From: an uncultured Bacilli bacterium
GTDB lineage: Bacteria; Bacillota_I; Bacilli_A; RF39; UBA660
DNA: 64,000 nucleotides
Assembly (NCBI GenBank): GCA_947628895.1
Contig: CANRBS010000002.1
Location: 2,818-66,817 of the forward strand
Direction: 5' to 3'
Shown here: positions 16,749 through 57,658 of the stretch, piece after piece
How positions within the stretch are numbered: position 1 is the first letter of the stretch
Layout: each line of letters starts with the position of its first letter
Made by a program: the position numbers and the translations under genes
The notes under the pieces: generated by a model
Database searches by the model: none
What the model was told of the DNA's origin: nothing
What the model saw: the letters and a program-made list of their open reading frames with translations, nothing else

Positions 16749-17414
16749 ATGGATTTAATATTAATTTTAATAATTATACTTATACCAATTTATGCACAAA
16801 TTAAAGTTACATCATCATATCATAAGTATTCAATGAAAGATAATAGTAGAAATATATCTGGTAAGGATGTAGCTAGAATGATACTTGATAAAAATGGATT
16901 AGAAAATGTTTCTATAGGTGAAATAGGAGGAGAACTTTCAGATCATTATAATCCAACTTCAAAACATATAAATTTATCAAGTGGTATATATTCAGGTACT
17001 TCTGTTGCTTCTGTAGCAGTTGCTGCTCATGAATGTGGACATGCTATTCAAGACAAAGAAAATTATGGATTCTTAAGATTTAGAACAGCTATGGTTCCTA
17101 TTGTTAATTTTACATCAAGATTTGCTACAATATTTATATTTCTTGGCTTTTTTCTAGAAGTTATAAACTTAGTAGACATAGGAATATTACTTTTATTAGT
17201 TGGTTTATTTTTTCAATTAATAACTCTACCAGTTGAATTTGATGCTTCTAAAAGAGCAAAAGAAGAATTAAAAAAATGTGGTTTAATTGAGAATAATGAT
17301 GTTAAAGGAACTAATAAAGTTTTAAATGCTGCTGCATTTACCTATGTTGCAAGTTTCCTTGCTATGGCACTTCAAGTTGTTAGATTAATATTAATTAGTA
17401 GAGATAATAATTAA
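16749..17414 (+). CDS. Zinc metallopeptidase, YugP-like (Zn_peptidase_2)
   Basis: HECGHAIQ HExxH motif; membrane-embedded C-terminal half. Confidence 0.8.
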   Translation: MDLILILIIILIPIYAQIKVTSSYHKYSMKDNSRNISGKDVARMILDKNGLENVSIGEIGGELSDHYNPTSKHINLSSGIYSGTSVASVAVAAHECGHAIQDKENYGFLRFRTAMVPIVNFTSRFATIFIFLGFFLEVINLVDIGILLLLVGLFFQLITLPVEFDASKRAKEELKKCGLIENNDVKGTNKVLNAAAFTYVASFLAMALQVVRLILISRDNN

Positions 17415-17421
17415 TAACCAA

Positions 17422-17455
17422 AAAATAATAGTTTTGCTAACTATTATTTTTATTT
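17422..17455. terminator. Bidirectional Rho-independent terminator between convergent genes
   Basis: AAAATAATAGT / ACTATTATTTT 11 bp stem with a 7 nt loop; A-run before and T-run after. Confidence 0.7.
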
Positions 17456-17474
17456 GCTAACTATTAAAGATTTA

Positions 17475-17687
17475 TTATTTTGTATATGGTAATAAAGCCA
17501 TATATCTTGCTCTTTTTATTTGATTAGCAATATGTCTTTGATGTTTTGCACATGCACCAGTCATTCTTCTAGGTAAAATTTTACCTTTTTCATTAATATA
17601 TTTAGATACAATTGCTACATCTTTATAATCTACTGGTTTTCCGGCACACATTTGACATATTTTTTTTCTTCTATAAAATTCAGCCAT
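17475..17687 (-). CDS. rpsR: 30S ribosomal protein S18
   Basis: 70 aa S18 ([32 protein letters not shown]). Confidence 0.95.
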
Positions 17688-17701
17688 TATTTCCTCCTTA
17701 T

Positions 17702-18178
17702 CTAAAATGGTAAATCATTGTCACTCAATGATACTTCTTTATCATAATTTTCATAAGGATCTGAATCTGGAATATCAAATTCTGGCACTATATCAATTGG
17801 TGGTTCACTTGGTGCATCTATATAACTATTATCAGTTGTAGTTGTACTATTCATTGAATCATTCTTTCCACCAACAAATTCTACATTTTCTACTATAACT
17901 TCTGTTACATATCTTTTTGTTCCATCTTGAGCATCATAATTTCTAACTTGAACTCTACCATCTAAACAAATCATATTTCCTTTTTTGAAATATTTAGATA
18001 TAAAATCTGCTGTTTGTCTAAATGCTACACAAGGTAAAAAGTCCGCATCATAATTTCCATCTTTATTCTTAAAGTTTCTATTTACAGCTACAGTAAAATT
18101 TACAGTATTAAAGCCAGCACTTGTTGTTCTCAATTCTGGATCTCTAGTAAGTCTACCAACTAAAATTATTTTATTCAT
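17702..18178 (-). CDS. ssb: Single-stranded DNA-binding protein
   Basis: OB fold ([17 protein letters not shown]) with an acidic C-terminal DLPF tip; sits between rpsF and rpsR. Confidence 0.95.
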
Positions 18179-18181
18179 AAA

Positions 18182-18469
18182 CTACTCCTCTTCTCTTATG
18201 ATAATATGTCTTAAGATATTTTCATCAATTTTTGCTTTACGATCAAATTCTTTTACTGCAGCAGCTGATGCTTCTACATTAAATACATAGTAATTTCCTC
18301 TTACTTGTTTGTTAATTGGATATGCTAATTTCTTTTGTCCCATATCCTTTGTATTAACGATTTTAGCTTTCATATCAGTAAGTACTTTTTCAAAAGCAGA
18401 AACTGTATCTTTTTGTGCTTTTTCGTCAATATCAGTTTTAACAATAAACATTATCTCATATTTGTTCAT
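18182..18469 (-). CDS. rpsF: 30S ribosomal protein S6
   Basis: MNKYEIMFIV... is a typical S6; first gene of rpsF-ssb-rpsR. Confidence 0.95.
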   Translation of the reverse strand: MNKYEIMFIVKTDIDEKAQKDTVSAFEKVLTDMKAKIVNTKDMGQKKLAYPINKQVRGNYYVFNVEASAAAVKEFDRKAKIDENILRHIIIREEE

Positions 18470-18561
18470 TATTACACCTCCTTTTGGTCTAAACGGCTTC
18501 TAAATGAAGCAAGGAACTTTTCGTTCGAAAGTATTATAGCACACAAAGTCCTATTTAACAA
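18470..18561 (-). promoter_or_regulatory. rpsF promoter and short structured leader
   Basis: Reverse strand reads TTGTTA (18556-18561), a 17 nt spacer, then TGCTATAAT (-10 at 18533-18538). The leader has GAAC/GTTC and GCTTC/GAAGC hairpins and is more G/C-rich than its surroundings. Confidence 0.45.
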
Positions 18562-18604
18562 TATTTTTTTACAAAAAAAATTATCAATAAAAATTGATAC
18601 TTTT

Positions 18605-19258
18605 TTAATTTTTAGCTTTTATCTTTTTTAACTCTTCATAGTACATAATTCTAGCGGTTACCATATAAGGTAATATCCATATATATAAAATTCCAAATGT
18701 TAATACTGATAAAAATATCCATCCAAGAAAACTTAATTGAAAGCTAAAATAGTCTGCTTTATATCCATCCATTAGTTCATTACTTTTTTGAAGCATATTT
18801 TTAGTATGTAATTCTTCAGATGTAGCTTCTGCTAATAAGAATGTTAACATTGCATATTTTAATGCATAAATAATACCTGGTATTACAAATAATAATGCGA
18901 ATAATGATATAATTAAATTAGAATAAATTGTTATTCCAATTATTTTCCACATATACTCTTTTTTATATTTTGATAGTATTGTTTCCTTTAAATTTACTTT
19001 TTCTCCTCTAACTAATTTTATATAATATTGAGCTAATCCAACACCTAAAGGTAAAAGACCAAGTTCTATAATTGTAGAAATTATATTAAAGAAAAAATTT
19101 TCATCACTAATTTCAAAATCAAATATTATTGATAACACACCTAAAATCAAACTAATTAATAAACCTATACTCATTATTAATAAAGGTACTTTCCAAAAAT
19201 TCCATTTATTATTAAAACCAAATTCTTTAGCTTTTGCTTTTATTTCCTTTCTATTCAT
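18605..19258 (-). CDS. DUF975-family integral membrane protein (paralog 1)
   Basis: MNRKEIKAKAKEFGFNNKW start, four TM helices. Shares IPGIIYALKYAMLTFLLAEATS with the neighbouring gene. Confidence 0.7.
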   Translation of the reverse strand: MNRKEIKAKAKEFGFNNKWNFWKVPLLIMSIGLLISLILGVLSIIFDFEISDENFFFNIISTIIELGLLPLGVGLAQYYIKLVRGEKVNLKETILSKYKKEYMWKIIGITIYSNLIISLFALLFVIPGIIYALKYAMLTFLLAEATSEELHTKNMLQKSNELMDGYKADYFSFQLSFLGWIFLSVLTFGILYIWILPYMVTARIMYYEELKKIKAKN

Positions 19259-19366
19259 TTTTTACCTCCAACTTCTATCTTATAATAAAATTATATATAT
19301 ATATATTAAAAGTCAAGAAGAATTTTTTAAGCTACAAAAAAATATCAATAAAATTGATACTTTTTA

Positions 19367-20011
19367 CTATTTTGATTTTAATTGTTTTAATTTTTCAAAA
19401 TACATAATTTCTGCTGTTTGCATATATGGAAGAACCCAGATGAATAATATTCCAAAAGTTAAACCACATAAGAATCCCCAACCAATAAAACTTAATTGAA
19501 ATACAAAATAATCCCATTTATATCCATCCATTAATTCACTACTTTTTTGAAGGATATTTTCACTTTGCAACTCTTTAGAAGTAGCTTCTGCCAATAAGAA
19601 TGTTAACATTGCATATTTTAATGCATAAATAATTCCTGGAATTACTAATAGTAATGACATTAACATAATTATTAAATTAGCTAAAATTGTTGTTGTAATT
19701 ATTTTCCACATATATTCTTTTTGATACTTTGACAATAATGTTTCTTTTAAATCTACATTTTTACCTTTAATAACTTGTATTAGGTAACTTACTAATCCTA
19801 CTGACATTGGTAATAATGCTAATTCAACTACTATTACTAAAAGATCATATAATAAACTTTCCTCATCTAAACCTAATAAAATTGTGATAAGACTTACAAT
19901 AGCATAAAGTACTGAACTAATTAATCCTACAATTAATAGTGGTTTCCAAATAAGCCATTTATTATTAAATCCAAATTCTTTTGCTTTCTCTTTAATTGCC
20001 TTTCTATCCAT
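19367..20011 (-). CDS. DUF975-family integral membrane protein (paralog 2)
   Basis: Collinear paralog of 18605..19258, with the same TATCAAT/ATTGATA hairpin downstream. Confidence 0.7.
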   Translation of the reverse strand: MDRKAIKEKAKEFGFNNKWLIWKPLLIVGLISSVLYAIVSLITILLGLDEESLLYDLLVIVVELALLPMSVGLVSYLIQVIKGKNVDLKETLLSKYQKEYMWKIITTTILANLIIMLMSLLLVIPGIIYALKYAMLTFLLAEATSKELQSENILQKSSELMDGYKWDYFVFQLSFIGWGFLCGLTFGILFIWVLPYMQTAEIMYFEKLKQLKSK

Positions 20012-20158: not shown

Positions 20159-20187
20159 TTGACATTTTACGAGTTTTATGATATAAT
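20159..20187 (+). promoter_or_regulatory. Near-consensus sigma-A promoter
   Basis: TTGACA (20159-20164), a 17 nt spacer, then TGATATAAT with extended -10 (TATAAT at 20182-20187). Confidence 0.75.
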
Positions 20188-20193
20188 GTTATT

Positions 20194-20660
20194 CGTATGG
20201 AGCATTATGCTAGTCAACCATACCACTAGAAGATGGGGCTAAAAATCCATTAATTGTGCAAGAAGGTACTTTATATATTTTGCTTCTTTCGCCCAGATTG
20301 GGGTGGATATATAATTTAAGATTTAAGGAAAATATGCAATGGCATGTATATGAAATCCTTTTATCAATCCGTGAAGTGATGATATGCACATGTCGTGAGT
20401 GATTTGTTGGGATAATTATTTTGAAAAATAAATTGCAAAAGCGAATAAAAGTGTCATATGATTGTTTGGGAAAACCTCTAGTGTGTTCTTATTATAAAGA
20501 TTGAAGTGCGGACTAAGTGGTGATCGAGTGATCATACAAGGTAACTTATGATTAATATCTTTAAAAAGAAATTGCCTACAGGTAACTAAGGGTAGATATT
20601 AGAGAAATTCAACTCGACCAAAGCCGTAAAATTAATTTATAATAATCCATACAAAATTTC
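20194..20660 (+). ncRNA. Candidate large structured RNA / long 5' leader (OLE-like hypothesis)
   Basis: About 470 nt with no ORF and its own strong promoter. Visibly richer in G/C than other spacers. Has local hairpins (CCCAGATTGGGG, GATCGAGTGATC, CTACAGGTAACTAAGGGTAG). 5' GTATGG (20195-20200) can pair with CCATAC at 20647-20652. No terminator before the downstream CDS. Confidence 0.4.
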
Positions 20661-20679
20661 TAAAGGGAGTTTATTAAAA

Positions 20680-21204
20680 ATGAAGAAAGATAATTGGATC
20701 ATTAAAGCATTTTTAATGACTTTTTTTATAGCTATAATTTTTAATAGTATATCAAATGTCATTACAAATAAATGCGAAAATATTTTTATTTTAATATTAG
20801 TTGCGATTATATTTATTTTTATAGGTATAATTTTTGATATAATTGGTACTGCTGTATTAACTGCTAATGAATCTACATTTCACTCTATGAGTTCTAAAAA
20901 GATAAAAGGTTCTAAAGAAGGAGTTTATTTAATTAAAAACTCAAGTAGAATTGCTAGTGTATGTAATGATGTAATTGGAGATATATGTGGTATAGTTAGT
21001 GGTTCTGTTAGTGCTATTATTGGAATATATATTTCTAATTTATTTAATATTTCAACAATAATTACAACATTAGTAATAAGTTCAATAGTATCATCTCTTA
21101 CAGTTGGTGGTAAAGCTATTGGTAAAAAAATAGCTATTAAAAAAAGTGATGATATTATATTTAGAGTAGCTAAAATAATTTATAAATTTAAACTTAAAAA
21201 ATAG
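20680..21204 (+). CDS. Small 4-TM membrane protein resembling a stand-alone DUF21 (CNNM/CorB transmembrane) module; OapA-like candidate
   Basis: 174 aa with four TM helices. LTANESTFHSMSSKKIKGSKEGVYLIKNSSRIASVCNDVIGDI parallels the DUF21 S-E-T-A...loop...helix pattern. RBS AAAGGGAG. Confidence 0.4.
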   Translation: MKKDNWIIKAFLMTFFIAIIFNSISNVITNKCENIFILILVAIIFIFIGIIFDIIGTAVLTANESTFHSMSSKKIKGSKEGVYLIKNSSRIASVCNDVIGDICGIVSGSVSAIIGIYISNLFNISTIITTLVISSIVSSLTVGGKAIGKKIAIKKSDDIIFRVAKIIYKFKLKK

Positions 21205-21228
21205 GATAAACAAATTATCCTATTTTTA

Positions 21229-23031
21229 TTATCTATGACTTCTAAATCTTTCTTTTTCATCAAGAATTTTCTTTCTTAATCTAATAGCATCAGGTGTTAC
21301 TTCTACAAGTTCATCACTTTCAATAAATTCAAGTGCTTCTTCTAAAGTAAATGTTTTAGGTCTTGGAAGAGCTATTGCTTCATCACTGCTAGTTGATCGT
21401 GTATTTGAAAATTCTTTATTTTTACAAGGATTTACATTTAAATCATTTTCTCTATTATTAATACCAATTATTTGACCAGAATATACGGCTACTGATGGTT
21501 CTACTATCATAGTACCTCTATCTAATAAGTTATAAAGTGCATAACCAAATGTTTTTCCACTTTCCATAGATACAAGTACACCATTTTTTCTAGAAGATAT
21601 TTCACCAGCATATGGTTTATAAGAATCAAAACTTCTAACCATAATACCTTCACCTTTAGTATTAGTAATAAAATTACTTCTATATCCAATTAAACCTCTT
21701 GTTGGAACAGAAAATTCTAATCTTACATAATTTTCTTCAGCTGGTTCCATTAATTCCATAGTACCTTTTCTTTCACTTAAATCATTTATTATTGTTCCTG
21801 AGTATTCATTAGGTACATTTATAATAACTTTTTCAAAAGGTTCTTGTTTTATACCATCTATTTCTTTAAATATAACTTCTGGTTTTGATACACCTAGTTC
21901 ATATCCTTCTCTTCTCATATTTTCAATTAATATTGATAAGTGAAGTTCACCCCGTCCAGAAACTTTAAATCCATCTCCATTTGGTAATTCTTCTACTTCA
22001 AGTCCTACATTTCTTTCAAGTTCTGCCATTAATCTATCTCTTAAATGTCTAGATGTTACAAATTTTCCTACTTTTCCTGCAAAAGGACTAGTATTTACTA
22101 AGAAGTTCATTGATAGAGTTGGTTTTTCTATTTCAATACTTGGTAGTGGATCAATATGATCATTATCACAAATTGTATCACCTATTGAAATATCAGGACA
22201 ACCTGCAATAGTTACTATATCTCCATAATATGCAGTATTTACTTCTTTTTTCTTAATACCTTCATTTACAAATATTTTAGTTATTTTTTCTTTTACAATT
22301 GTACCATCATTTTTAGAAATTGTTACGGTTTGTCCAGTAGTAATTTTACCTTTATTAATTCTACCAATACCAAGACGACCTATATAATCATCATAATCTA
22401 ATGATGAAATTTGAAATTGTAATGGGTCGTTTTCATTTCCTTCAAATGGTTTAGTTGTTTCAATAATTGTATCAAGAAGTGGTGTTATATCATTATTATC
22501 ATCATTTTCATCATATTTTGCTATACCTTCTTTTGCAATTCCATATATAATCTTAAAATCTAATTGTTCATTTGTAGCATTAAGTTCACAGAATAAATCA
22601 AAAGTCATATTAACAACTTCTTCACTTCTTGCATCTTTTTTATCTATTTTATTAATGAATAATATAGGTTTTAGTCCATTTTGTAATGCTTCTTTTAATA
22701 CAAATCTTGTTTGAGGCATTGGACCTTCTGCTGAATCTACAAGTAATACTACAGTATCAACTGTTTTAATAATTCTTTCAATTTCACTTGAAAAATCAGC
22801 ATGTCCTGGAGTATCTACTATATTCATTTTATAACCTTTATATCTAATAGCACAGTTTTTAGCAGTGATAGTAATTCCTCTTTCTCTTTCTAAATCTCCA
22901 CTATCCATAACACAATCTACAACTTGTTCATTTTCTCTAAATACACCATTTTGTTTTAATAAAGCATCAACAAGTGTACTTTTTCCAGCATCAACATGTG
23001 CTACTACTGCAAAATTAATTATTTTATCCAT
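21229..23031 (-). CDS. typA: Translational GTPase TypA/BipA
   Basis: G1 AHVDAGKST and G3 DTPGHADF; full-length BipA architecture. Confidence 0.95.
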   Translation of the reverse strand: MDKIINFAVVAHVDAGKSTLVDALLKQNGVFRENEQVVDCVMDSGDLERERGITITAKNCAIRYKGYKMNIVDTPGHADFSSEIERIIKTVDTVVLLVDSAEGPMPQTRFVLKEALQNGLKPILFINKIDKKDARSEEVVNMTFDLFCELNATNEQLDFKIIYGIAKEGIAKYDENDDNNDITPLLDTIIETTKPFEGNENDPLQFQISSLDYDDYIGRLGIGRINKGKITTGQTVTISKNDGTIVKEKITKIFVNEGIKKKEVNTAYYGDIVTIAGCPDISIGDTICDNDHIDPLPSIEIEKPTLSMNFLVNTSPFAGKVGKFVTSRHLRDRLMAELERNVGLEVEELPNGDGFKVSGRGELHLSILIENMRREGYELGVSKPEVIFKEIDGIKQEPFEKVIINVPNEYSGTIINDLSERKGTMELMEPAEENYVRLEFSVPTRGLIGYRSNFITNTKGEGIMVRSFDSYKPYAGEISSRKNGVLVSMESGKTFGYALYNLLDRGTMIVEPSVAVYSGQIIGINNRENDLNVNPCKNKEFSNTRSTSSDEAIALPRPKTFTLEEALEFIESDELVEVTPDAIRLRKKILDEKERFRSHR

Positions 23032-25733: not shown

Positions 25734-26090
25734 TTAATATGGATTAGGATAACTTTGTAAACCATATCCATCTCCTTTTAACCAATATATTTTATTACCT
25801 TTAATTTTAAATTTATATATTATTTTATATTTTACATTGTCTTCTTTTGAATATGTAAATGTTACAGTACTATTACCATTTTTATTTGGTATAAATGTCC
25901 ATTTATTATCAGTGCTTTCTTTTAATATAATGTTATCATTATCACTTACATAATTCCAATTATAACCATTATCATGATAATCATATTCAATATTAATTTC
26001 ATCCTTGTATTTAGCTAAATAATTTTGAGGATAAAATATTATAACTAAAGATAAAATTAAAGTAATTCCAAATATTAATATATATCTCAT
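25734..26090 (-). CDS. Small secreted/anchored protein of unknown function
   Basis: N-terminal hydrophobic signal, beta-rich Asn/Tyr/Lys sequence, RBS AGGAG. Confidence 0.4.
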   Translation of the reverse strand: MRYILIFGITLILSLVIIFYPQNYLAKYKDEINIEYDYHDNGYNWNYVSDNDNIILKESTDNKWTFIPNKNGNSTVTFTYSKEDNVKYKIIYKFKIKGNKIYWLKGDGYGLQSYPNPY

Positions 26091-26619
26091 TTATTCTCCT
26101 ATAATACACAAAAAGCAACCAGTCCTGATAAAACTTGATTGCTTTGAGTTTCCGAAAAACGATTATAATCATTTATATTAAAGGATTTCACTTTAATATA
26201 AATACTCCTAAATATTATCAGTATTTAGCATAATCCCTTATCATTTTGAGTTTAGCTTTCTCAACGATATATCATTTGTCCTTAGTAGATAAGTCTTCTA
26301 TATCTTAAATTAATAAGATTAATTTATTTCTTATAAATATTATTTTTTTATTACTATAACTATTTACATATAAATAATTAACAAGTTAATGCTAACTATA
26401 AACATATAAAATTCATTATAATATTTATATCTATAAGATAATAAATATTTATAGAATATTTTCACTATAGATAATATAATTTTTAAATATCATCAATCTA
26501 AATTAAATATTTAAATTTAATAAAGATATATAGATTTTAAATTTTTTATATTATCTCTATTGGACAAGTATATTGTATCAAGTATTTTTTATATTGTCAA
26601 CTACTTTTTTTAAAAAAAT

Positions 26620-45552: not shown

Positions 45553-45873
45553 CTATTTTTCTCCTTTTAATGCAAATAATATTTCTTTTTCTATTTCTTT
45601 ATAATCTATATCTAAAATTGCATTCCTTAATATTATAACATAATCATAACTATCATTAATACTATTTTTCATTAATATATCTTTGATCCTTCTTTTGTAT
45701 AAATTTCTAGTATGAGCTTTTCCAATTTTTTTACTGACACTTATACAATACCTATTAAATCCTAATTTATTAGATAAATAGTATATAACAAAATATTTAT
45801 TAACAATTTTATGTGATTGTTTTATTATACTCTGTATTTCTTCATTTTTCCTTATTATATATTTTTTGTTCAT
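45553..45873 (-). CDS. rnpA: RNase P protein component
   Basis: Basic 106 aa protein (KAHTRNLYKRRIKD) immediately downstream of rpmH. Confidence 0.85.
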   Translation of the reverse strand: MNKKYIIRKNEEIQSIIKQSHKIVNKYFVIYYLSNKLGFNRYCISVSKKIGKAHTRNLYKRRIKDILMKNSINDSYDYVIILRNAILDIDYKEIEKEILFALKGEK

Positions 45874-45898
45874 ATGTCACCTAATAACAATATTATAT

Positions 45899-45927
45899 AA
45901 AAAAAATTACTTAATTGAAAGTAATTT
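45899..45927 (-). terminator. Hairpin/attenuator between rpmH and rnpA
   Basis: AAATTACTT / AAGTAATTT 9 bp stem (45904-45912 / 45919-45927) with a 6 nt loop, followed by a T-run on the reverse strand. Confidence 0.55.
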
Positions 45928-45929
45928 AT

Positions 45930-46052
45930 TTATTTTGCTAATTCTTTTCTTCCTTTTGCTCTTCTTGATTTTAATACATTAGTTCCTTTTCTTGCTAAAA
46001 AACCAGAAGTTTTACTTTTCTTTCTATTATTTGGTTGAAATGTTCTTTTCAT
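45930..46052 (-). CDS. rpmH: 50S ribosomal protein L34 (short, 40 aa)
   Basis: Below the ORF-track size cutoff. Reverse strand encodes [40 protein letters not shown]. Confidence 0.9.
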
Positions 46053-46314
46053 TAATTATAACCTCCATTTCTTCTTTGACTGACATAGATTATATAATAT
46101 GAAATTTTAAAAGTCAACCTTTTTATAGGAAATTAGGGAAAAGTAAGTTTAATTTTAACACCAAATATATTATTATTTATTTTTATTTTTTAATTTATAG
46201 ATTATTAGTATAAATATTTTAATATTTAAAATTTAATTTATATTATGTAAACTTCTAATTTTAATATAATATTATGTTAAGTTATTAACACTATATTAAC
46301 AAAATTATGTTAAC

Positions 46315-46379
46315 TTATACACAATTTATCAACATAGGTAGTAAACATAATGTTTAAAAATTGTTGATATTGTTGATAA
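46315..46379. promoter_or_regulatory. oriC part 1: DnaA-box cluster upstream of dnaA
   Basis: TTATACACA (46315-46323), TTATCAACA (46326-46334), TGTTGATAT (46362-46370), TGTTGATAA (46371-46379). Each is one or two mismatches from TTATCCACA. Extremely AT-rich flank at 46140-46300. Confidence 0.75.
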
Positions 46380-46551
46380 CTTAATTTTTTATTTGATTTT
46401 AAAAGAAAAAATTGTTTACAAAAAGTTAAAAAATTGTTAGTATAAATGTTAATTAAAAAAATTATTTTGCATTTTTTTTTAGATGTTTTATAATTTTATT
46501 AGAAGGAATAAAAGTCGGTTGATTAATAAGTTATAGAAAGGATAGATAAAT

Positions 46552-47946
46552 ATGAATACAGAAGATATTTGGAATAGTTTTTTATCTAAAATAAAATCAA
46601 AAGTATCCTTAATGACTTATAACTATGTTTTTAGTGATATGAAGTTATATTCATATGATAATAGTTCTATAAAAATTATTATTCCTGATAATGAATTACT
46701 CTTACAAAATATTAATAAAAATTATGGAACTATTATTGAAGATATATTAAATGATATAACTAATGATACATGTGAAATTGAATATGTATTTGCTAAAGAT
46801 ATAGCTTCTTTAGAATCTAATAAGAAGAAATTAACGGAAATAAAAGAAGAAAATGATGATCTTATAGACAACGATTTATCAAATTACAAATATAATAGTA
46901 ATTTTAATCCAAAGTACACATTTGATACATTTGTTGTAGGGGAAGCAAATAAACTTGCATATGGCACGGCACTTGCAGTAGCACAAAATCCTGGAAAACT
47001 ATATAATCCTTATTTCTTATATGCTAAAAGTGGTCTTGGAAAAACACATTTAATGCATGCAATAGGTAATTATATTGTTACTCACAGTGATAAAAAAGTT
47101 TTATATATAACTGCAGAACAATTTACTAATGATTATAGAGCTATTATTAATAATAAGAATAAAAATGGTAATAACATTTCATATTTAGAAGCATTTAGAG
47201 ATAAATATAGAAATGTAGATGTATTAATGATTGATGATATACAATTCCTTGAAAGTAAAACAAAAACACAAATAGAATTTACAAATACATTTAATTCACT
47301 TCATGATAATGATAAACAAATAATAATTGCATCAGACACATCAATAAATGATTATAAATATTTAGAAGATAGACTTAAAACTAGATTTAGATGGGGACTT
47401 ACTGAATCAATAAATCCACCTGAATTTGAATTAAAGAGAAATATAATTAAAAATAAAATAATGGTTAACAACTTTGATTTAACTCTTAGTGAAGAAATAA
47501 TTGATTATATTGCTAATAATTGTGGAAGTGATATAAGAAATCTTGAAAATGCAGTACTGAGAATTGTAGCATATAAAGCAGCATTTAATATTCCAGAAAT
47601 AACTATGGATATTGCACAAGATGCACTTCAAGAATATGTTAACACTCCTATATATAGAGTTAATTCAGTAGCTAAAATTATTGATGTCGTTGCTAAATAC
47701 TTTGGTATTGATTCATCAATGATAAAGGGTAAGATGAAGAAAAAGAATATAGCTGATGCTAGAGCTATCACAATGTACCTGTGCAGAATACTTACTGAAG
47801 AAAGCTTAGAAAGAATAGGACTTGAAATAGGAGGAAGGGATCATTCAACAGTTATCTATTCTTATGAAAAAATATCAAATGAATTAAAAACAAATATTAA
47901 ACTTCAAGAAGAAATAAAAATATTAAAAGATAAACTTAGTGAATAA
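46552..47946 (+). CDS. dnaA: Chromosomal replication initiator DnaA
   Basis: AAA+ Walker A GKSGLGKTHL; C-terminal DNA-binding signature (RDHSTVIYSYEKI). Confidence 0.97.
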   Translation: MNTEDIWNSFLSKIKSKVSLMTYNYVFSDMKLYSYDNSSIKIIIPDNELLLQNINKNYGTIIEDILNDITNDTCEIEYVFAKDIASLESNKKKLTEIKEENDDLIDNDLSNYKYNSNFNPKYTFDTFVVGEANKLAYGTALAVAQNPGKLYNPYFLYAKSGLGKTHLMHAIGNYIVTHSDKKVLYITAEQFTNDYRAIINNKNKNGNNISYLEAFRDKYRNVDVLMIDDIQFLESKTKTQIEFTNTFNSLHDNDKQIIIASDTSINDYKYLEDRLKTRFRWGLTESINPPEFELKRNIIKNKIMVNNFDLTLSEEIIDYIANNCGSDIRNLENAVLRIVAYKAAFNIPEITMDIAQDALQEYVNTPIYRVNSVAKIIDVVAKYFGIDSSMIKGKMKKKNIADARAITMYLCRILTEESLERIGLEIGGRDHSTVIYSYEKISNELKTNIKLQEEIKILKDKLSE

Positions 47947-47955
47947 CTTGTAAGT

Positions 47956-48027
47956 TTATCAACAATAATATAACGATAAAAATATGAATAATTAAGGAAT
48001 TACTTAACTTAACATAAGTTATCAACA
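47956..48027. promoter_or_regulatory. oriC part 2: DnaA boxes in the dnaA-dnaN spacer
   Basis: TTATCAACA at 47956-47964 and 48019-48027, followed by a very AT-rich stretch before dnaN. Confidence 0.65.
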
Positions 48028-48085
48028 ATATTAACAGTCTATAATAATATTAATAATTAATAAAAATTAAAAAGGAGGTTTTATT

Positions 48086-49204
48086 ATGAAATTGTTAATT
48101 GAAAAAAATATTTTAATGGAAGGATTAAATTCAGTTAGTAAAGCATTATCTACTAGAAATATTATTCCAGTACTTAATGGTATTAAATTTGAACTTAATA
48201 AAGATGGTCTATATTTAACAGCTACTGATAATGAAATAACTATTCAAACTTTTATAGAAAAAAGTAATATAAAAAATATAGAAGAAGAAGGATGCTCAGT
48301 AATATATGGTAAATCATTATTAGATATTATTAGAAGACTTCCTGAAAGTGATATACTAATAGAAAATTTTGAAAATAATGAGGTGTCTTTTAAAACTAAT
48401 AATTCAATATATAATTTTAATTGTTTTATGGTTGAAGATTTTCCGAATGTATCATTAGATGAAAGTAAAAATCCAATAAAGTTAGATAGTTTAAAATTTA
48501 AAGAAGTTATTAACAAAACATCATTTGCTTGTTCACTTCAAGAAAGTAGACCACTTTTAACTGGAGTTAATATAAAAGTTCAAGGTGATCTATTTGAATG
48601 CACTGCAACTGACTCATATAGACTTTCTAAAGTTACTTTAAAATTAGATAAGATGTATAATGAAAATATAAATGTTGTTATACCAGCTAGAAATATAAAT
48701 GAATTTGTTAAAATAATAGATAATGGTGAAGAAATGCAAATGCATGTATTTAGTAATAAGATAATATTCAGATTAAATAATTTAGTATTTCAATCATCTT
48801 TATTGAATGGAAATTATCCTAATACAGATAATTCAATAGCAAAAGAATTCAAATATATTATTAAAGCTGATTTAAAAGAATTATATAATACTTTAGATAG
48901 AGCATCATTACTTACACAATCTAAAGATAAGAATATTGTTGGATTAGAAATTAATGAAAATGATTTTATTATAAGAGCATCAAGTGTAGAAATGGGAAAA
49001 GTTGAAGAAAAATTAACTGTTGAAAATGAAACAAATAATAATATAAAAATATCATTTAGTGCTAAATATATGTTAGAAGCTCTAAAAATGTTCAATAAAG
49101 AATATGTATATATACTTCTAAATGGTGAAATTAATCCTATTATATTAAAAGAAATTGATAATGATGAATTAATCCAATTAATTTTACCTTTTAAAACTTA
49201 TTAA
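48086..49204 (+). CDS. dnaN: DNA polymerase III beta sliding clamp
   Basis: 372 aa three-domain clamp; follows dnaA. Confidence 0.95.
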   Translation: MKLLIEKNILMEGLNSVSKALSTRNIIPVLNGIKFELNKDGLYLTATDNEITIQTFIEKSNIKNIEEEGCSVIYGKSLLDIIRRLPESDILIENFENNEVSFKTNNSIYNFNCFMVEDFPNVSLDESKNPIKLDSLKFKEVINKTSFACSLQESRPLLTGVNIKVQGDLFECTATDSYRLSKVTLKLDKMYNENINVVIPARNINEFVKIIDNGEEMQMHVFSNKIIFRLNNLVFQSSLLNGNYPNTDNSIAKEFKYIIKADLKELYNTLDRASLLTQSKDKNIVGLEINENDFIIRASSVEMGKVEEKLTVENETNNNIKISFSAKYMLEALKMFNKEYVYILLNGEINPIILKEIDNDELIQLILPFKTY

Positions 49205-49208
49205 AAAA

Positions 49209-49230
49209 ACGGGAAATCCTGTTTTTTTTT
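49209..49230 (+). terminator. dnaN terminator
   Basis: CGGGA..TCCTG short stem followed by T9. Confidence 0.5.
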
Positions 49231-49255
49231 ACAATTTTTTAATTTTTTTAATTTT

Positions 49256-49282
49256 TTCGACAAAATTCGACATTTTTCGACA
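49256..49282. repeat. Three direct TTCGACA heptamers at exact 10 bp spacing upstream of the comK-like gene
   Basis: TTCGACA at 49256, 49266 and 49276, one helical turn apart, each flanked by A/T tracts. Confidence 0.8.
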
Positions 49283-49338
49283 AATATATTGTGTTACTAT
49301 AACAAACATTATTAAAAAGAAAGGGGGTCATTAATAGT

Positions 49339-49803
49339 ATGGATTATGAAATCACATATGATACTCAAATAATATTACCAATTGATGAGAATTCTTCAAA
49401 AATCATAGAAAATGATAGTGAATATGTTATTAATAATAGTACATTAAATATCCTAGAACATAGTTGTGAATATTTTGGTAGTTCTTATGAAGGAAGAAAA
49501 GAAGGAACTAAAAAGTTATTAGGTATTACTCATAAATCACCAATCATAGTTGAAGAAAGTAGAAAAATAATATTTTTTCCAACAAGTTCACCAGAAAATA
49601 GTAATTGTATATGGATTAATTTAGAAAAAATAGAAAAATATTATAAAGTAAATTCTAAAAAATCTGCAATATTATTTAAAAATGGTGATGTAATAGAATT
49701 TGATGTTTCTTATGGTTCACTTACTAATCAAATATTAAGAGCAACAAGATTAAAATACATTCTAGAAGAGAGAATGACTAAAAAAGAAGATATTTTATTA
49801 TAA
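49339..49803 (+). CDS. comK: ComK-family competence transcription factor
   Basis: SCEYFGSSYEGRKEGTKKLLGITHKSPIIVEESRKIIFFPTSS parallels B. subtilis ComK SCRFFGSSYAGRKAGTYEVTKISHKPPIMVDPSNQIFLFPTLS. Confidence 0.75.
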   Translation: MDYEITYDTQIILPIDENSSKIIENDSEYVINNSTLNILEHSCEYFGSSYEGRKEGTKKLLGITHKSPIIVEESRKIIFFPTSSPENSNCIWINLEKIEKYYKVNSKKSAILFKNGDVIEFDVSYGSLTNQILRATRLKYILEERMTKKEDILL

Positions 49804-49964
49804 TTATTTTCTAAAAATAAAAAAATTTTTAAAAATTTATTAGATTTATTTCTATTTTATATTTATAAGATTGAAATAAGTCTTTTTATTTAAAAAAATT
49901 AAATTTATTGTTTTTTAATTTTTATAAAAAATATGATATAATACATTTAAAGGTAGTGTTGAGA

Positions 49965-51032
49965 ATGAAGAAAACAAAAGATATTACTTATTATAGAAAT
50001 ATGTTGCATAAAGAAAATATTATTTTATTAATAATATCAGTTATATTTATTATTGTAAATTTTTTATACATATCAAAAGGAATAGAAAAAGCAATACCTA
50101 TATTTTTAAAATCAATTTTGTTTTTAATATTTTCAATATTAATAATATCTAATAAAAAAGAAAATAAAAAATTTATAGGAAATTTAAATATAATAATTAG
50201 TAGTTTAATGATTATAACATCTGTTGATGGTTCTTTATTTAGTGTAATGTATTTTTTATTAGGAATTTTTATAATAATGCATTCCATATTATATTTAAAA
50301 CAATTAAAGCAATCTAGAGAACAAAGTGATAGTGTAAGAATAGAAAGTAAATATAAATATTTACCATTAATTTCTTTTTTTATAACAATTATATTAAGTA
50401 TATTAGGTATTATATTTAATCAACCTTTAATTTTATTAGGAATATCTTGGTGTAGTATTTCAATTTTTATTATAAATATTTTTGAAATAATATTATGTAT
50501 TATATTAAATAGAAAAAATATAAAAACTTCATTGAATTATATACTTTTAGTTATATCAATAATTATTACACTATTAAATATTTTATTTTTAAAAGATGGC
50601 ATAAGACTTTATCAATTAGAAAAGAATTATAATAACAGTGAAGATTATGTTATAGATATTATAGAACAAATAGAGGACGATATTATTTTTAATGCAATGA
50701 ATATTAAAAATCAAAAATTATTTAATATACAACAAGGAAAAAATATAATACAATTAGATGATTACTTAAAAAAGACAAACTATGAGAATTTTAATTTAAA
50801 AAACTTAGAAAAAGAAGGATATAAATGTGTAGGATATTTATCTTTAATTATTAATAATACAGTTAACTATGAAAAATATTCAGAAATAATAAATGATGAA
50901 TATTATTTAAATCTAAATTTTCAATACAATGTTGATAAATATTTTGAAGAGGCAAAGACTTATATTAAATGTAATGGTAAATATAATTATCAAACAAAAA
51001 ATTTTGATGAAAGTAATATAAAATCATATTAA
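49965..51032 (+). CDS. Polytopic membrane protein with soluble C-terminal domain, unknown function
   Basis: About seven TM helices, then an Asn/Lys/Tyr-rich soluble part. Start taken at MKKTKD. Confidence 0.35.
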   Translation: MKKTKDITYYRNMLHKENIILLIISVIFIIVNFLYISKGIEKAIPIFLKSILFLIFSILIISNKKENKKFIGNLNIIISSLMIITSVDGSLFSVMYFLLGIFIIMHSILYLKQLKQSREQSDSVRIESKYKYLPLISFFITIILSILGIIFNQPLILLGISWCSISIFIINIFEIILCIILNRKNIKTSLNYILLVISIIITLLNILFLKDGIRLYQLEKNYNNSEDYVIDIIEQIEDDIIFNAMNIKNQKLFNIQQGKNIIQLDDYLKKTNYENFNLKNLEKEGYKCVGYLSLIINNTVNYEKYSEIINDEYYLNLNFQYNVDKYFEEAKTYIKCNGKYNYQTKNFDESNIKSY

Positions 51033-51167
51033 AAATATAATGTTATTTATTAGAAAAAATATAATTATATCTTTTTTTATGCCTTAAATTATGTTATAAT
51101 TAATACAGTGTGTAGGAGTACCTTAAAAAGCTAAAATTTAAATTTAGGGGGAAAAAGAGGTTTAAAA

Positions 51168-52247
51168 ATGAATATTACCAAGATTGAGTTACTAAATTTT
51201 AGAAACTATAAAAAGAAAAATTTTGATAATTTTTCAAATTTAAACATTATTATAGGTAAAAATGCAGTTGGCAAAACATCTATAATAGAAGCAATATATT
51301 TAGGTAGTTTAGCAAAATCTTTTAAAACAAATAATGATTATGCATTAATTAATAATGATAGTGATTTTTTAAAAATAAAAATACATTATTTTGATTATGG
51401 ACCTAAAAAGAATTTAGAAGTTTATTTAGATAAAAATGGTAAAAAGACTAAAATAAATTCTAAATTACAAAGAAGACTAAGTGATTTTATATCACAATAT
51501 AGAATTATAATGCTATCTCCTGATGAACTTAAATTAATTAAAGCAACTCCTAATACTAGAAGAAATTATTTAAATATTCAAATATCTCAATTACATAAAG
51601 AATACTTACATTATTTAAACAATTATAATAATCTTATTAAAAATAAGAATGATTATTTAAAAAAATTAATGTTGAACAGTAATTTAGATACTAGATATTT
51701 AGATGTATTAGATCAAAAGATAGTTAGTGAAGGATTAAAAATATATGAATATAGAAAGAAGTATATAGAATTAATTAACAAATATATTAATGATATATTC
51801 AAAAACTATGAAAAAAATAATCAAATATTTATCAAATATATAAGTGATTATGAAATAAATGATTATGATAAAATCCTAGCTGAACTAAAGAAAAATAGAA
51901 AAAGAGAAATTAATATTGGTATGACATCAATAGGTGTTCACAGAGATGATTATGAATTTATTCATAATGGTAATAATTCTAAAGAATATAGCTCACAAGG
52001 ACTTCAAAAATTGATTGTTCTTGCTATGAAATTGTCAGAAGTTCAAATATTTGTTAATGATTATGATATAAAACCTATATTACTTCTAGATGATTTGTTT
52101 AGTGAGTTAGATGAAAAAAATAGAAATAATATTTTTAAATCGTTAAATAAAGATATACAAGTATTTATAACAACAACTGATTTAAAAAATATTAATAAAA
52201 GATTAATAGATAAAGCCAAAATATTTAATTTAGATGAGAGGGTGTGA
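51168..52247 (+). CDS. recF: DNA replication and repair protein RecF
   Basis: Walker [10 protein letters not shown], signature SQGLQK, Walker [12 protein letters not shown]. Confidence 0.95.
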
Positions 52248-52251
52248 GAAA

Positions 52252-54171: not shown

Positions 54172-54181
54172 GAGGTTTATA

Positions 54182-57530: not shown

Positions 57531-57559
57531 TTGATATTAAAATTAATTTATAGTATAAT
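57531..57559 (+). promoter_or_regulatory. SRP RNA promoter
   Basis: TTGATA (57531-57536), a 17 nt spacer, then TATAAT (57554-57559). Confidence 0.7.
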
Positions 57560-57564
57560 TTATT

Positions 57565-57643
57565 TGTGCAACAAGTCTAATATGAAACAGGTCAGAATTG
57601 GAAAATAGCAGCCTTAAGTATGAAACTTGTGTGCACATTTTTT
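57565..57643 (+). ncRNA. ffs: Small (4.5S-type) signal recognition particle RNA
   Basis: CAGGUCAGAAUUGGAAAAUAGCAGCC aligns with the E. coli 4.5S domain IV CAGGUCAGGUCCGGAAGGAAGCAGCC, with compensatory AUU/AAU in place of UCC/GGA around the GGAA loop. A 12 bp closing helix TGTGCAACAAGT/ACTTGTGTGCACA is followed by a T-run. In B. subtilis the SRP RNA gene (scr) lies between tadA and dnaX; here ffs lies just upstream of tadA, so the neighbourhood matches but the order differs. Confidence 0.85.
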
Positions 57644-57658
57644 ATTGAAATTAAATTT

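What the first reader, a model, noticed from the sequence alone, without database searches (positions are those of the whole stretch)
20159..21204. Strong promoter driving a roughly 480 nt ORF-free structured leader upstream of a stand-alone DUF21-like 4-TM protein (OLE/OapA-like?)
A near-perfect promoter (TTGACA-17-TGATATAAT) at 20159-20187 is followed by about 470 nt with no ORF. This stretch is noticeably more G/C-rich than other spacers here and has multiple hairpins. Its 5' segment GTATGG can pair either locally (CCATAC at 20218) or with the 3' end (CCATAC at 20647). No terminator precedes the downstream gene. That gene encodes a 174 aa four-TM protein whose TM2-loop-TM3 region resembles the DUF21 module of CNNM/CorB Mg2+ transporters but lacks their CBS/CorC domains. 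From memory, OLE RNA is a roughly 600 nt RNA of anaerobic and extremophilic Firmicutes that lies immediately upstream of oapA, a small four-TM membrane protein. The OLE RNP has been linked to Mg2+ stress. This locus may be a short or divergent OLE-like RNA, or a new large RNA class.
Basis: partly seen in the sequence, partly recalled or inferred. Interest (0 to 1): 0.65.

Follow-up and report, generated by a model that had tools for sequence, protein, structure and literature searches.

The report
Compact OLE RNA with its oapA gene

Summary
Window 20181-20666 (+) matches Rfam OLE (RF01071) end to end at 215 bits (threshold 50, E 3e-59). The RNA proper most likely runs from 20195 to 20652, about 458 nt. 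It is about 130 nt shorter than classical OLE because stems P7 and P8, the distal part of P9 and the small P11 hairpin are missing. This fits the published "variant 2" OLE of reduced-genome gut Bacilli (order RF39; Fernando & Breaker 2024).

Thirty-four related compact OLEs support the fold. For the Rfam helices, 89.5% of cells pair against about 40% in slid controls, and 57 of 105 pairs show compensatory changes. For the long-range helices P1-P3.1 and P4a the figure is 96.9%.

The consensus promoter is real and keeps its position in relatives. The 174-aa gene is oapA: it has four TM helices, an invariant DxxxD motif and a CNNM/CorB-like fold without CBS or CorC domains. It is 45% identical to the protein downstream of a full-length OLE in Aeribacillus.

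In three RNA-seq runs, OLE was the only substantial match in a 10-kb stretch that a DNA run covers evenly.

The proposed local hairpin (GUAUGG with CCAUAC at 20218) is not supported. The 3' partner forms P1, and the local CCAUA belongs to P3.

Verdict: correct identification of an already known RNA class; low novelty.

The parts
20159..20187 (+). Sigma-70-type promoter of the ole-oapA unit: -35 TTGACA (20159-20164), 17-nt spacer with extended -10 TG (20179-20180), -10 TATAAT (20182-20187). The start site is predicted at about 20194-20195.
   Evidence: The site scores 12/12 with TG. The same arrangement is seen in about 30 related loci, with the -10 ending 7 nt before P1 in most. The start site is inferred, not measured.
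20195..20652 (+). OLE RNA, compact form of about 458 nt, bounded by helix P1. The Rfam hit spans 20181-20666.
   Evidence: RF01071 scores 215.2 bits, E 3e-59, covering model positions 1-616 of 616. Covariation is shown. RNA-seq contigs cover it.
20195..20201 (+). P1 5' strand GUAUGGA, pairing with UCCAUAC at 20646-20652. This helix closes the whole RNA.
   Evidence: 91.6% of cells pair across 34 compact OLEs, with an A-U/U-A swap (17 vs 14) and a G-C/U-A swap. In 15 full-length OLEs the longest 5'/3' helix ranged 4-8 bp (mean 6.5) with different sequences, e.g. GGGAUGGU/ACCAUCCC.
20206..20213 (+). P2 5' strand UAUGCUAG, pairing with CUAGUGUG at 20478-20485. It joins the two invariant CUAG palindromes. 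The literature maps an OapA-binding palindrome 'in or near P2'.
   Evidence: 100% of cells pair. The one variable position shows GC:12, AU:7, UA:6, CG:5, GU:4. The helix name is my inference from the text of PMC12265935.
20215..20227 (+). P3 (20215-20219, probably extending to 20222) and P3.1 (20224-20227) 5' strands. They pair with 20460-20464 (extending to 20457) and 20450-20453. The literature proposes this helix as the membrane-spanning one.
   Evidence: P3 pairs in 96.5% of cells and P3.1 in 99.3%, and 7 of their 9 pairs show compensatory changes. The extension is examined.
20232..20251 (+). P4 hairpin with the invariant A-rich loop CUAAAAAUCC, a dimer contact in cryo-EM structures of full-length OLE.
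   Evidence: helix 1, 100% paired. The role comes from PMC12265935.
20255..20259 (+). P4a 5' strand UGUGC, pairing with GCACA at 20386-20390. It encloses P5, P6 and the stub that replaces P7/P8.
   Evidence: 97.6% of cells pair and 3 of 5 pairs show compensatory changes.
20270..20315 (+). P5/P5.1 hairpin with loop GCCCA. The promoter/terminator scan flagged its tip (20288-20307) as terminator-like.
   Evidence: helix 2, 11 pairs with compensatory changes.
20320..20365 (+). P6/P6.1 hairpin with loop AAUGGCAU, complementary to the P5.1 loop. In full-length OLE dimers these two loops form a kissing contact.
   Evidence: helices 3 and 4. The loop is invariant in 34 sequences.
20366..20385 (+). A poorly conserved 20-nt linker where full-length OLEs carry P7 and P8 (about 75-120 nt).
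   Evidence: The Rfam alignment shows 44+36 model positions replaced by 8+10 nt. Side-by-side alignment with L076, L058, L048 and L063 confirms it. These columns are not conserved.
20392..20445 (+). P9, truncated. The distal 46 or so model positions, which include the GGCC kissing loop of full-length OLEs, are reduced to a short AU-rich tip (GGGAUAAUUAUUUUGAAA).
   Evidence: and (helices 5-7).
20467..20477 (+). P10 hairpin (UGG-GAAAA-CCU). The P11 hairpin that follows in full-length OLEs is absent.
20489..20645 (+). Domain 2 core: P12 (20489-20498 with 20636-20645), P12.1 (20507-20511 with 20624-20628), P12.2 (20524-20529 with 20612-20617), P13 (20531-20552, GUAA tetraloop with a 5' bulge) and P14 (20553-20601).
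   Evidence: helices 9-14: P12.2 is invariant, and P13 and P14 have 7 and 8 pairs with compensatory changes. The GNRA loop reads GNRA in every row of the alignment printed.
20662..20669 (+). Ribosome-binding site AAAGGGAG, 10 nt before the oapA ATG.
   Evidence: Read directly from the sequence.
20680..21204 (+). oapA: a 174-aa protein with four TM helices, a CNNM-like fold and a DxxxD motif (D97-D101).
21197..21235 (.). Bidirectional intrinsic terminator shared by oapA (+) and typA (-): a 13-bp stem (21197-21209 with 21215-21227) with U runs on both strands.
   Evidence: Free energy is -12.2 and -12.6 kcal/mol, z -4.5 and -3.9, with 0 of 200 shuffles as stable. The simple scan missed it because the stem has few G-C pairs.

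Best explanation
The locus is a two-gene ole-oapA unit. A strong housekeeping-type promoter starts transcription at about 20195. The first 458 nt or so fold into OLE RNA, a large structured noncoding RNA. The same transcript continues without a terminator into oapA and ends at a bidirectional terminator at 21197-21227.

By analogy with the studied Halalkalibacterium halodurans and Clostridium systems, the RNA is expected to bind dimers of the four-TM protein OapA through its CUAG palindromes. It would then be held at the membrane, dimerise through the P4 A-rich loop and the P5.1/P6.1 kissing loops, and act as a stress-adaptation ribonucleoprotein (cold, short-chain alcohols, excess Mg2+, carbon source).

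This copy is the reduced form. It has no P7, P8 or P11 and only a stub of P9. The J4a/5 segment, which in full-length OLEs carries AUCGAU and the OapC kink-turn, is remodelled.

**Shown here:** family membership, the fold and its covariation, conservation of the promoter, identity of oapA, and presence of the RNA in RNA-seq assemblies.

**Inferred from the literature, not tested here:** OapA binding, membrane localisation, dimerisation, processing out of the co-transcript, and physiological role.
For: **RNA family and fold**
- Rfam OLE scores 215.2 bits (gathering score 50), E 3e-59, over the full model.
- OLE lies directly upstream of the oapA homologue in all 17 loci tested with Rfam. By nhmmer, 77 of 80 loci carry OLE, all but one (L038) directly upstream.
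- The RNAs fall into two length classes, 462-505 nt and 570-660 nt.
- On 34 compact OLEs, the 105 Rfam-projected pairs are 89.5% paired, against 38-43% when the partner is slid. Fifty-seven pairs show compensatory changes.
- RNAalifold independently recovers P1, P2, P3, P3.1 and P4a. These are 96.9% paired, with 14 of 29 pairs compensatory.
- The missing blocks map to P7, P8, distal P9 and P11. This agrees with the published variant 2.

**Transcription**
- The promoter scores 12/12 and keeps its position in relatives.
- In RNA-seq runs X9, X12 and X13, OLE pieces of 135-209 nt at 99% identity or more, up to depth 125, are the only substantial matches in 10.3 kb. DNA run X1 covers that stretch evenly.

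**OapA**
- The DxxxD motif is invariant.
- It is 45% identical (E 3e-47) to the Aeribacillus protein downstream of a 533-bit full-length OLE.
- The AlphaFold2 model (pLDDT 83) has CorB/CorC CNNM transmembrane domains (7M1T, 7M1U, 7CFG) as its top five PDB matches. The literature reports the same for H. halodurans OapA.
Against: - Nothing contradicts the assignment.
- RNA evidence comes from assembled contigs without strand or end information. The 5' and 3' ends, and any processing away from oapA mRNA, are therefore not measured.
- Helix names P1-P4a are assigned from text descriptions, because the published figure could not be viewed.
- The RF39 placement of the host rests on record titles of the nearest MAGs (uncultured Bacilli, Tenericutes, Mycoplasmatota, Erysipelotrichaceae), not on a GTDB lookup.
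- No function has been tested for any compact OLE.
Confidence: 0.95

Rival explanations
1. The 460-nt segment is a cis-acting 5' leader (riboswitch or attenuator) that only regulates oapA translation or transcription. On this view it is not a free-standing functional RNA.
For: It shares one promoter with oapA. There is no terminator between the RNA and oapA. The RBS lies only about 10 nt after P1.
Against: It is a full-model member of OLE, whose representatives act as an RNP component in trans-complementation and binding studies. In RNA runs the RNA is recovered while the oapA coding region is essentially not. No expression platform or terminator is present.
Confidence: 0.03
2. It is a decaying remnant of OLE in a reduced genome: recognisable, but no longer functional.
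For: It has lost P7, P8, distal P9, P11 and the AUCGAU/kink-turn segment. Its bit score is less than half that of full-length OLEs.
Against: The same compact architecture is kept in at least 34 diverged genomes, with 57+14 pairs showing compensatory changes and long invariant blocks. The promoter is conserved. The linked oapA is intact and conserved, with 3761 homologues. The RNA is present in RNA libraries.
Confidence: 0.02
3. It is a new large RNA class that only resembles OLE superficially.
For: It is about 130 nt shorter than classical OLE, and the Rfam model does not annotate its long-range helices.
Against: It scores 215 bits over model positions 1-616 and shares all signature blocks: CUAGUCA, CUAAAAAUCC, GCCCA, AAUGGCAU, GGACUAAGUGG and GACCAAAGCCGUAAAAUU. 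The oapA synteny is identical to that of full-length OLEs. The short form has been published as an OLE variant.
Confidence: 0.005

Closest known systems
OLE RNA 'variant 2' (Fernando & Breaker 2024, mSphere; common in order RF39 of Bacilli)
   Same: It lacks P7 and P8 and keeps the highly conserved OLE nucleotides. It sits next to oapA. Its nearest relatives are uncultured gut Bacilli/Mollicutes-like MAGs with low G+C.
   Different: No substantive difference was found. This clade also has a very short P9 and no P11. I could not check those features against the published variant-2 diagram, because figures are not held. GTDB placement of the host was not verified.
Full-length OLE RNA (RF01071; H. 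halodurans, C. acetobutylicum, C. botulinum; cryo-EM dimers 2025)
   Same: It shares P1-P6, P9 (proximal part), P10 and P12-P14. It also shares the P4 A-rich loop, the complementary P5.1 and P6.1 loops, the GNRA-capped bulged P13, and a downstream oapA.
   Different: It is about 130 nt shorter. P7, P8, distal P9 (with the GGCC kissing loop that forms the 'arch') and P11 are absent. J4a/5 lacks AUCGAU and the GA steps of the OapC kink-turn. It has its own promoter in a two-gene unit. My recollection, not checked here, is that classical hosts carry ole inside a longer operon.
OLE RNA 'variant 1' (TANB77 Clostridia)
   Same: It is a shortened OLE in reduced-genome gut bacteria.
   Different: Variant 1 keeps short P7 and P8 stems and often loses the P13 tip. 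Here P7 and P8 are absent, and the P13 GNRA loop and bulge are conserved.
MpfA / CorB / CorC (CNNM, DUF21) Mg2+ transporters
   Same: The OapA model superposes on the CNNM transmembrane domain (7M1T, 7M1U, 7CFG; probability 1.00, TM 0.49-0.60). It gives a weak Pfam PF01595 hit.
   Different: OapA has no CBS pair and no CorC domain. It has four TM helices rather than three and carries the OapA-specific DxxxD motif. It is a relative of these transporters, not a member.

Membership tests
OLE RNA (Rfam RF01071) | Covariance-model score at or above the curated gathering score | tested here: met
   215.2 bits against 50, E 3e-59, model positions 1-616 of 616.
OLE RNA (Rfam RF01071) | Conserved multi-stem secondary structure supported by covariation | tested here: met
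   The 105 model pairs are 89.5% paired (slid controls 38-43%), and 57 pairs are compensatory. P1-P3.1 and P4a are 96.9% paired, with 14 of 29 compensatory.
OLE RNA (Rfam RF01071) | Signature invariant sequence blocks (CUAGUCA, P4 loop CUAAAAAUCC, GCCCA, AAUGGCAU, GGACUAAGUGG, GACCnAAGCCGnAAA) | tested here: met
   All are present in the window and invariant or nearly so across 34 compact OLEs. They are shared with full-length OLEs.
OLE RNA (Rfam RF01071) | oapA gene immediately downstream | tested here: met
   The oapA ATG lies 28 nt after P1. The same arrangement is seen in 17 of 17 loci by Rfam; by nhmmer 77 of 80 loci carry OLE, all but one (L038) directly upstream.
OLE RNA (Rfam RF01071) | Full complement of stems P1-P15 (full-length form, about 600 nt) | tested here: not met
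   P7, P8, distal P9 and P11 are absent. This excludes the 'full-length' subtype, not the family. The literature recognises short variants.
OLE RNA variant 2 | P7 and P8 entirely lacking while other conserved nucleotides are kept | tested here: met
   A non-conserved 20-nt linker (20366-20385) lies between P6 and the 3' strand of P4a.
OLE RNA variant 2 | Host in the reduced-genome gut order RF39 (typical, not obligatory) | tested here: inconclusive
   The organism is from rabbit gut metagenomes. The nearest MAGs are titled uncultured Bacilli, Tenericutes, Mycoplasmatota or Erysipelotrichaceae. No GTDB lookup was available.
OLE RNA (Rfam RF01071) | Accumulates as an RNA in cells | tested here: met
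   In three RNA-seq runs, OLE pieces of 135 nt or more are the only substantial matches in a 10.3-kb stretch that a DNA run covers evenly. Contigs give no ends or strand.
OLE RNP | RNA binds OapA and localises to the membrane; the RNA dimerises | not testable with these tools
   Known for H. halodurans and Clostridium OLEs. Here only the sequence elements involved are seen: the CUAG palindromes, the P4 loop and the P5.1/P6.1 loops.
OLE RNP | OapB site: GNRA-capped P13 with a 5' bulge docked on P12.2 | tested here: met
   The loop reads GNRA in every row of the printed alignment (GUAA here) and P12.2 is invariant. The window has a 2-nt bulge (A, C) rather than 1 nt. Whether an OapB protein exists in this genome is unknown.
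OLE RNP | OapC kink-turn formed by J4a/5, J5/6 and the P6 shoulder | tested here: inconclusive
   J4a/5 reads AAGAAGGUAC here and AAAAUGAUAC in most relatives, against CACAUCGAUGAAG in full-length OLEs. The GA step is not conserved in the compact class. The kink-turn was not modelled.
OLE RNP | oapB and oapC genes present in the genome | not testable with these tools
   None of 10 small or unassigned ORFs in the window has a KOW or L7Ae domain, but the window is only 64 kb. The literature says RF39 genomes largely lack both.
OapA protein | About 170-aa protein with four TM helices and basic cytoplasmic clusters | tested here: met
   The model has helices at residues 6-31, 35-61, 88-122 and 126-154. 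Basic clusters are KKIKGSK and GGKAIGKKIAIKK.
OapA protein | DxxxD motif (distinguishes OapA from CNNM domains) | tested here: met
   D97-V-I-G-D101, with both aspartates invariant in 34 sequences.
OapA protein | CNNM-like fold without CBS or CorC domains | tested here: met
   Foldseek's top five matches are CorB/CorC. Pfam CNNM scores 25.8 bits, below the 28.4 cut-off, and is the only credible hit; the one other listed match (MFA1_2, E 0.11, an 11-residue stretch) is negligible.
OapA protein | Homology to proteins encoded next to full-length OLE | tested here: met
   45% identity, E 3e-47, to the Aeribacillus pallidus protein downstream of a 533-bit OLE.
CNNM/CorB/MpfA Mg2+ transporters | DUF21 domain followed by a CBS pair and (usually) a CorC_HlyC domain | tested here: not met
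   The protein ends after TM4 and a short amphipathic helix, with no CBS or CorC hit.

The most novel reading that the evidence does not exclude
The compact OLE may be a natural minimal OLE. It would work with OapA alone, from its own promoter. It lacks the P9 arch contact, P7, P8, P11 and the OapC kink-turn segment, yet it still keeps a GNRA-capped, bulged P13. The retained P13 would then either serve RNA tertiary folding only, or bind an unidentified protein in genomes reported to lack OapB. If so, the roughly 458 nt here would define the functional core of the OLE particle and give a smaller target for structural work.
Probability: 0.35. Interest if true: 0.35.

Novelty: already known. Interest (0 to 1): 0.2.

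Why it matters
OLE is one of the largest and best conserved bacterial noncoding RNAs whose biochemical function is still unknown. Recent structures suggest that it spans the membrane. This locus adds no new class.

It does document a compact representative in detail. The record covers a conserved dedicated promoter, exact helix boundaries, which dimer contacts and protein sites are kept or lost, and evidence of RNA accumulation in gut samples.

Such natural minimal versions show which parts of the RNA are dispensable. P7, P8, the P9 arch, P11 and the kink-turn segment are lost. P1-P6, P12-P14, the CUAG palindromes and the P4, P5.1 and P6.1 loops are kept. For the scan itself, it shows that the first-stage reader can recognise OLE and oapA from raw sequence.

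Tried and rejected
1. **Local hairpin GUAUGG (20195) with CCAUAC (20218).** It is 73.5% paired across the compact OLEs, with one swapping position. Its best helix length is barely above shuffled controls: 5.2 vs 4.4 nt in compact OLEs and 5.7 vs 4.8 nt in full-length ones. The CCAUA segment belongs to the 5' strand of the covarying P3 helix. I rejected it as an established element. A transient co-transcriptional pairing cannot be excluded.
2. **Terminator-like site at 20288-20307.** This is the conserved P5.1 hairpin, not a terminator.
3. **Palindromic P9 tip as a retained kissing loop.** AAUU-type palindromes occur in most compact OLEs. In sequence this AT-rich that is expected by chance, so I make no claim.
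4. **PDB sequence search with OapA.** No hit. Only fold comparison finds CorB/CorC.
5. **SNORD45 hit (20.5 bits, E 0.39).** This is chance similarity to the AAUGGCAUG loop.
6. **Supplement of PMC11332333.** I searched it for accession numbers or RF39 lists to confirm the host's clade. Only figure legends are held.
7. **Raw-read RNA runs for mapping ends.** None exist for this sequence. All RNA runs are assembled contigs.
8. **OapB- or OapC-like small ORFs in the window.** None were found among the 10 scanned.
Full report
**Observation**

- A 12/12 sigma-70 promoter with an extended -10 TG lies at 20159-20187.
- The stretch from there to the ATG at 20680 holds only mechanical ORFs of 30-59 aa.
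- Its G+C is 0.30-0.355. The spacer just upstream is 0.18 and the flanking genes are 0.20-0.26.
- GTATGG lies at 20195-20200. CCATAC lies at 20218-20223 and at 20647-20652.
- The only terminator-like match before the gene (20288-20307) is an internal hairpin of the RNA.

**Identity of the RNA**

A scan of the whole window against Rfam 15 gives a single strong hit here. OLE (RF01071) matches 20181-20666 on the + strand at 215.2 bits against a gathering score of 50, with E 3e-59 and model positions 1-616 of 616.

The alignment shows the OLE signature blocks: CUAGUCA, CUAAAAAUCC, GCCCA, AAUGGCAUG, GGACUAAGUGG and GACCAAAGCCGUAAAAUU. It also shows three gaps:
- 80 model positions after P6 are reduced to 18 nt;
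- a 46-position hairpin tip is reduced to 2 nt;
- a small hairpin is absent.

Aligned beside four full-length OLEs from other genomes, these gaps correspond to P7 plus P8, the distal part of P9 and P11.

Fernando & Breaker (2024, PMC11332333) describe exactly such forms. Their 'variant 2' lacks P7 and P8 entirely and is common in the reduced-genome gut order RF39. Those organisms largely lack OapB and OapC.

**Relatives**

The 174-aa protein has 3761 database homologues, the best at 95% identity. A scan of one genome per species returned 80 loci.
- The closest proteins (65-75% identity) come from gut MAGs titled uncultured Bacilli, Erysipelotrichaceae, Tenericutes or Mycoplasmatota.
- More distant ones (41-50%) include Aeribacillus pallidus, Anaerosolibacter, Petromonas, Congzhengia and Faecousia.

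Rfam finds OLE directly upstream of the protein gene in all 17 loci tested.
- Thirteen are compact, at 481-490 nt and 202-242 bits.
- Four are full length, at 603-646 nt and 404-558 bits.

An nhmmer profile finds OLE in 77 of 80 loci, directly upstream of the gene in all but L038, with the same two length classes.

The window's own sequence occurs in ENA assemblies and rabbit gut metagenomes.

**Structure**

I projected the Rfam structure from the window onto a MAFFT alignment of 34 compact OLEs.
- 89.5% of cells form standard pairs, against 38-43% when the 3' partners are slid by 1-3 columns.
- 57 of 105 pairs show changes on both sides.
- No shuffle reaches the observed values.

RNAalifold on the same alignment adds long-range helices that the Rfam model does not annotate. 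I assigned them names from the domain order given in PMC12265935:

| Helix | 5' strand | 3' strand | Note |
|---|---|---|---|
| P1 | 20195-20201 | 20646-20652 | closes the RNA |
| P2 | 20206-20213 | 20478-20485 | joins the two CUAG palindromes |
| P3 | 20215-20219 | 20460-20464 | probably extends |
| P3.1 | 20224-20227 | 20450-20453 | |
| P4a | 20255-20259 | 20386-20390 | encloses P5, P6 and the P7/P8 stub |

These 29 pairs are 96.9% paired (slid controls 25-57%), and 14 show compensatory changes. Between P6 and the 3' strand of P4a only 20 non-conserved nucleotides remain (20366-20385). P7 and P8 are therefore absent, not merely diverged.

**What is kept and what is lost, relative to published OLE biology**

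Kept:
- the P4 A-rich loop and the complementary P5.1 and P6.1 loops, which are three of the four dimer contacts seen by cryo-EM;
- the CUAG palindromes at P2, near a mapped OapA site;
- the P12.2/P13/P14 junction, with a GNRA loop on P13 in every aligned row and a 5' bulge, which are the OapB-site features. The window has a 2-nt bulge rather than 1 nt.

Lost or altered:
- P7 and P8, which the literature notes are not dimer contacts;
- the long P9 arch with its GGCC kissing loop;
- P11;
- the J4a/5 segment. In full-length OLEs it reads CACAUCGAUGAAG and contributes to the OapC kink-turn. Here it reads AAGAAGGUAC, with no conserved GA step in the compact class.

Whether a kink-turn can still form was not resolved.

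**The two pairings proposed for GUAUGG**

The long-range pairing is P1.
- It is 91.6% paired, with an A-U/U-A swap (17 vs 14) in the compact class.
- In the 15 full-length OLEs examined the longest 5'/3' helix ranged 4-8 bp (mean 6.5), with quite different sequences in different genomes.

The local pairing is weak.
- It is 73.5% paired.
- Its helix length is barely above shuffled controls.
- Its CCAUA segment belongs to the P3 5' strand.

I treat the local pairing as unsupported. At most it is a transient fold during transcription.

**Transcription unit**

In about 30 related loci a TTGACA-17-TATAAT promoter, often with TG, sits so that the -10 ends 7 nt before P1, while the flanking sequence differs. 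This places the start at about 20194-20195, so the RNA begins at P1. The start site is inferred.

No terminator lies between P1 and oapA. The RBS AAAGGGAG precedes the ATG by 10 nt. A 13-bp hairpin with U runs on both strands at 21197-21227 ends both oapA and the convergent typA.

In three RNA-seq runs (X9, X12, X13), OLE pieces are the only substantial matches over 10.3 kb. They are 135-209 nt long, at least 99% identical, and reach depth 125. A DNA run from rabbit gut covers the same stretch evenly at 3-15x. A sheep gut metatranscriptome holds a 393-nt contig of a related compact OLE.

This argues for an abundant, stable RNA and against DNA carry-over. Contigs give no strand or end information, however.

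**The protein**

- Pfam CNNM/DUF21 hits at 25.8 bits, under the 28.4 cut-off, and no other domain is found.
- The DxxxD motif that distinguishes OapA from CNNM domains is present as D97-VIG-D101 and is invariant in 34 sequences.
- The protein is 45% identical (E 3e-47) to the Aeribacillus protein downstream of a full-length OLE.
- An AlphaFold2 model (pLDDT 83, pTM 0.75) has four long TM helices.
- Its top five PDB matches are the CNNM transmembrane domains of CorB and CorC (7M1T, 7M1U, 7CFG; probability 1.00). The literature reports the same top match, 7M1U, for H. halodurans OapA.

It is OapA.

**Mechanism**

The best-supported reading is the published OLE RNP model applied to a reduced RNA. 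The promoter drives an ole-oapA transcript. OLE folds into domain 1 (P3-P9) and domain 2 (P1, P2, P10-P14). OapA dimers bind near the palindromes and hold the RNA at the membrane. The particle contributes to stress adaptation.

Only the sequence-level parts are shown here. Binding, localisation, dimerisation, processing and physiology are inferred from H. halodurans and Clostridium work.

**Novelty and verdict**

The class is known and curated in Rfam. The short form and its typical hosts are published. The gene pair is the standard one. The finding is a correct recognition of a known RNA, and I score interest low.

The most novel reading still open is that this about 458-nt form is a natural minimal OLE working with OapA alone while keeping a P13 'OapB site' of unknown use.

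Noticed in passing
window 26208-26300 (-): A PGK RNA motif (RF03040) scores 84.1 bits, E 8e-10. It lies just upstream of a 118-aa ORF (25734-26090, -) that has no convincing Pfam family.
   Followed up: partly
window 57555-57652 (+): Bacterial small SRP RNA (RF00169), 55.6 bits.
   Followed up: no
window 18605-20011 (-): Two tandem DUF975 membrane-protein paralogues lie between rpsF and the ole promoter. In the closest genome (GCA_947629235.1, OapA 95% identical) no genes are called in that interval, so this is an insertion or deletion difference between close relatives.
   Followed up: partly
window 45553-56740: By my reading of the N-terminal sequences in the ORF map, this looks like a replication-origin neighbourhood: rnpA-like, dnaA-like (46552-47946), dnaN-like (48086-49204), recF-, gyrB- and gyrA-like ORFs (not confirmed by domain search). 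A clear ComK homologue (49339-49803; Pfam ComK E 1e-46) sits between dnaN and the next genes.
   Followed up: partly
L037, L062, L038: Two oapA homologues (L037, L062) have no OLE within 4 kb upstream, by either nhmmer or Rfam. In L038 a full-length OLE lies about 1.8 kb upstream of oapA instead of adjacent to it.
   Followed up: partly
L024, L050 versus L001-L023: MAGs labelled 'uncultured Bacilli' carry either compact or full-length OLE. L024 has 598 nt at 383 bits. The two forms therefore coexist among related gut lineages.
   Followed up: no
window 17275 to 19334, DNA run X1: One rabbit-gut DNA contig joins 17275 to 19334, skipping 2058 nt. Only 21 letters lie on the shorter side, at depth 8.7. 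It may be a strain variant or an assembly artefact.
   Followed up: no
L023 4600-4633: An L31-Firmicutes ribosomal protein leader (RF03156, 37.1 bits) lies just downstream of oapA in a related locus.
   Followed up: no
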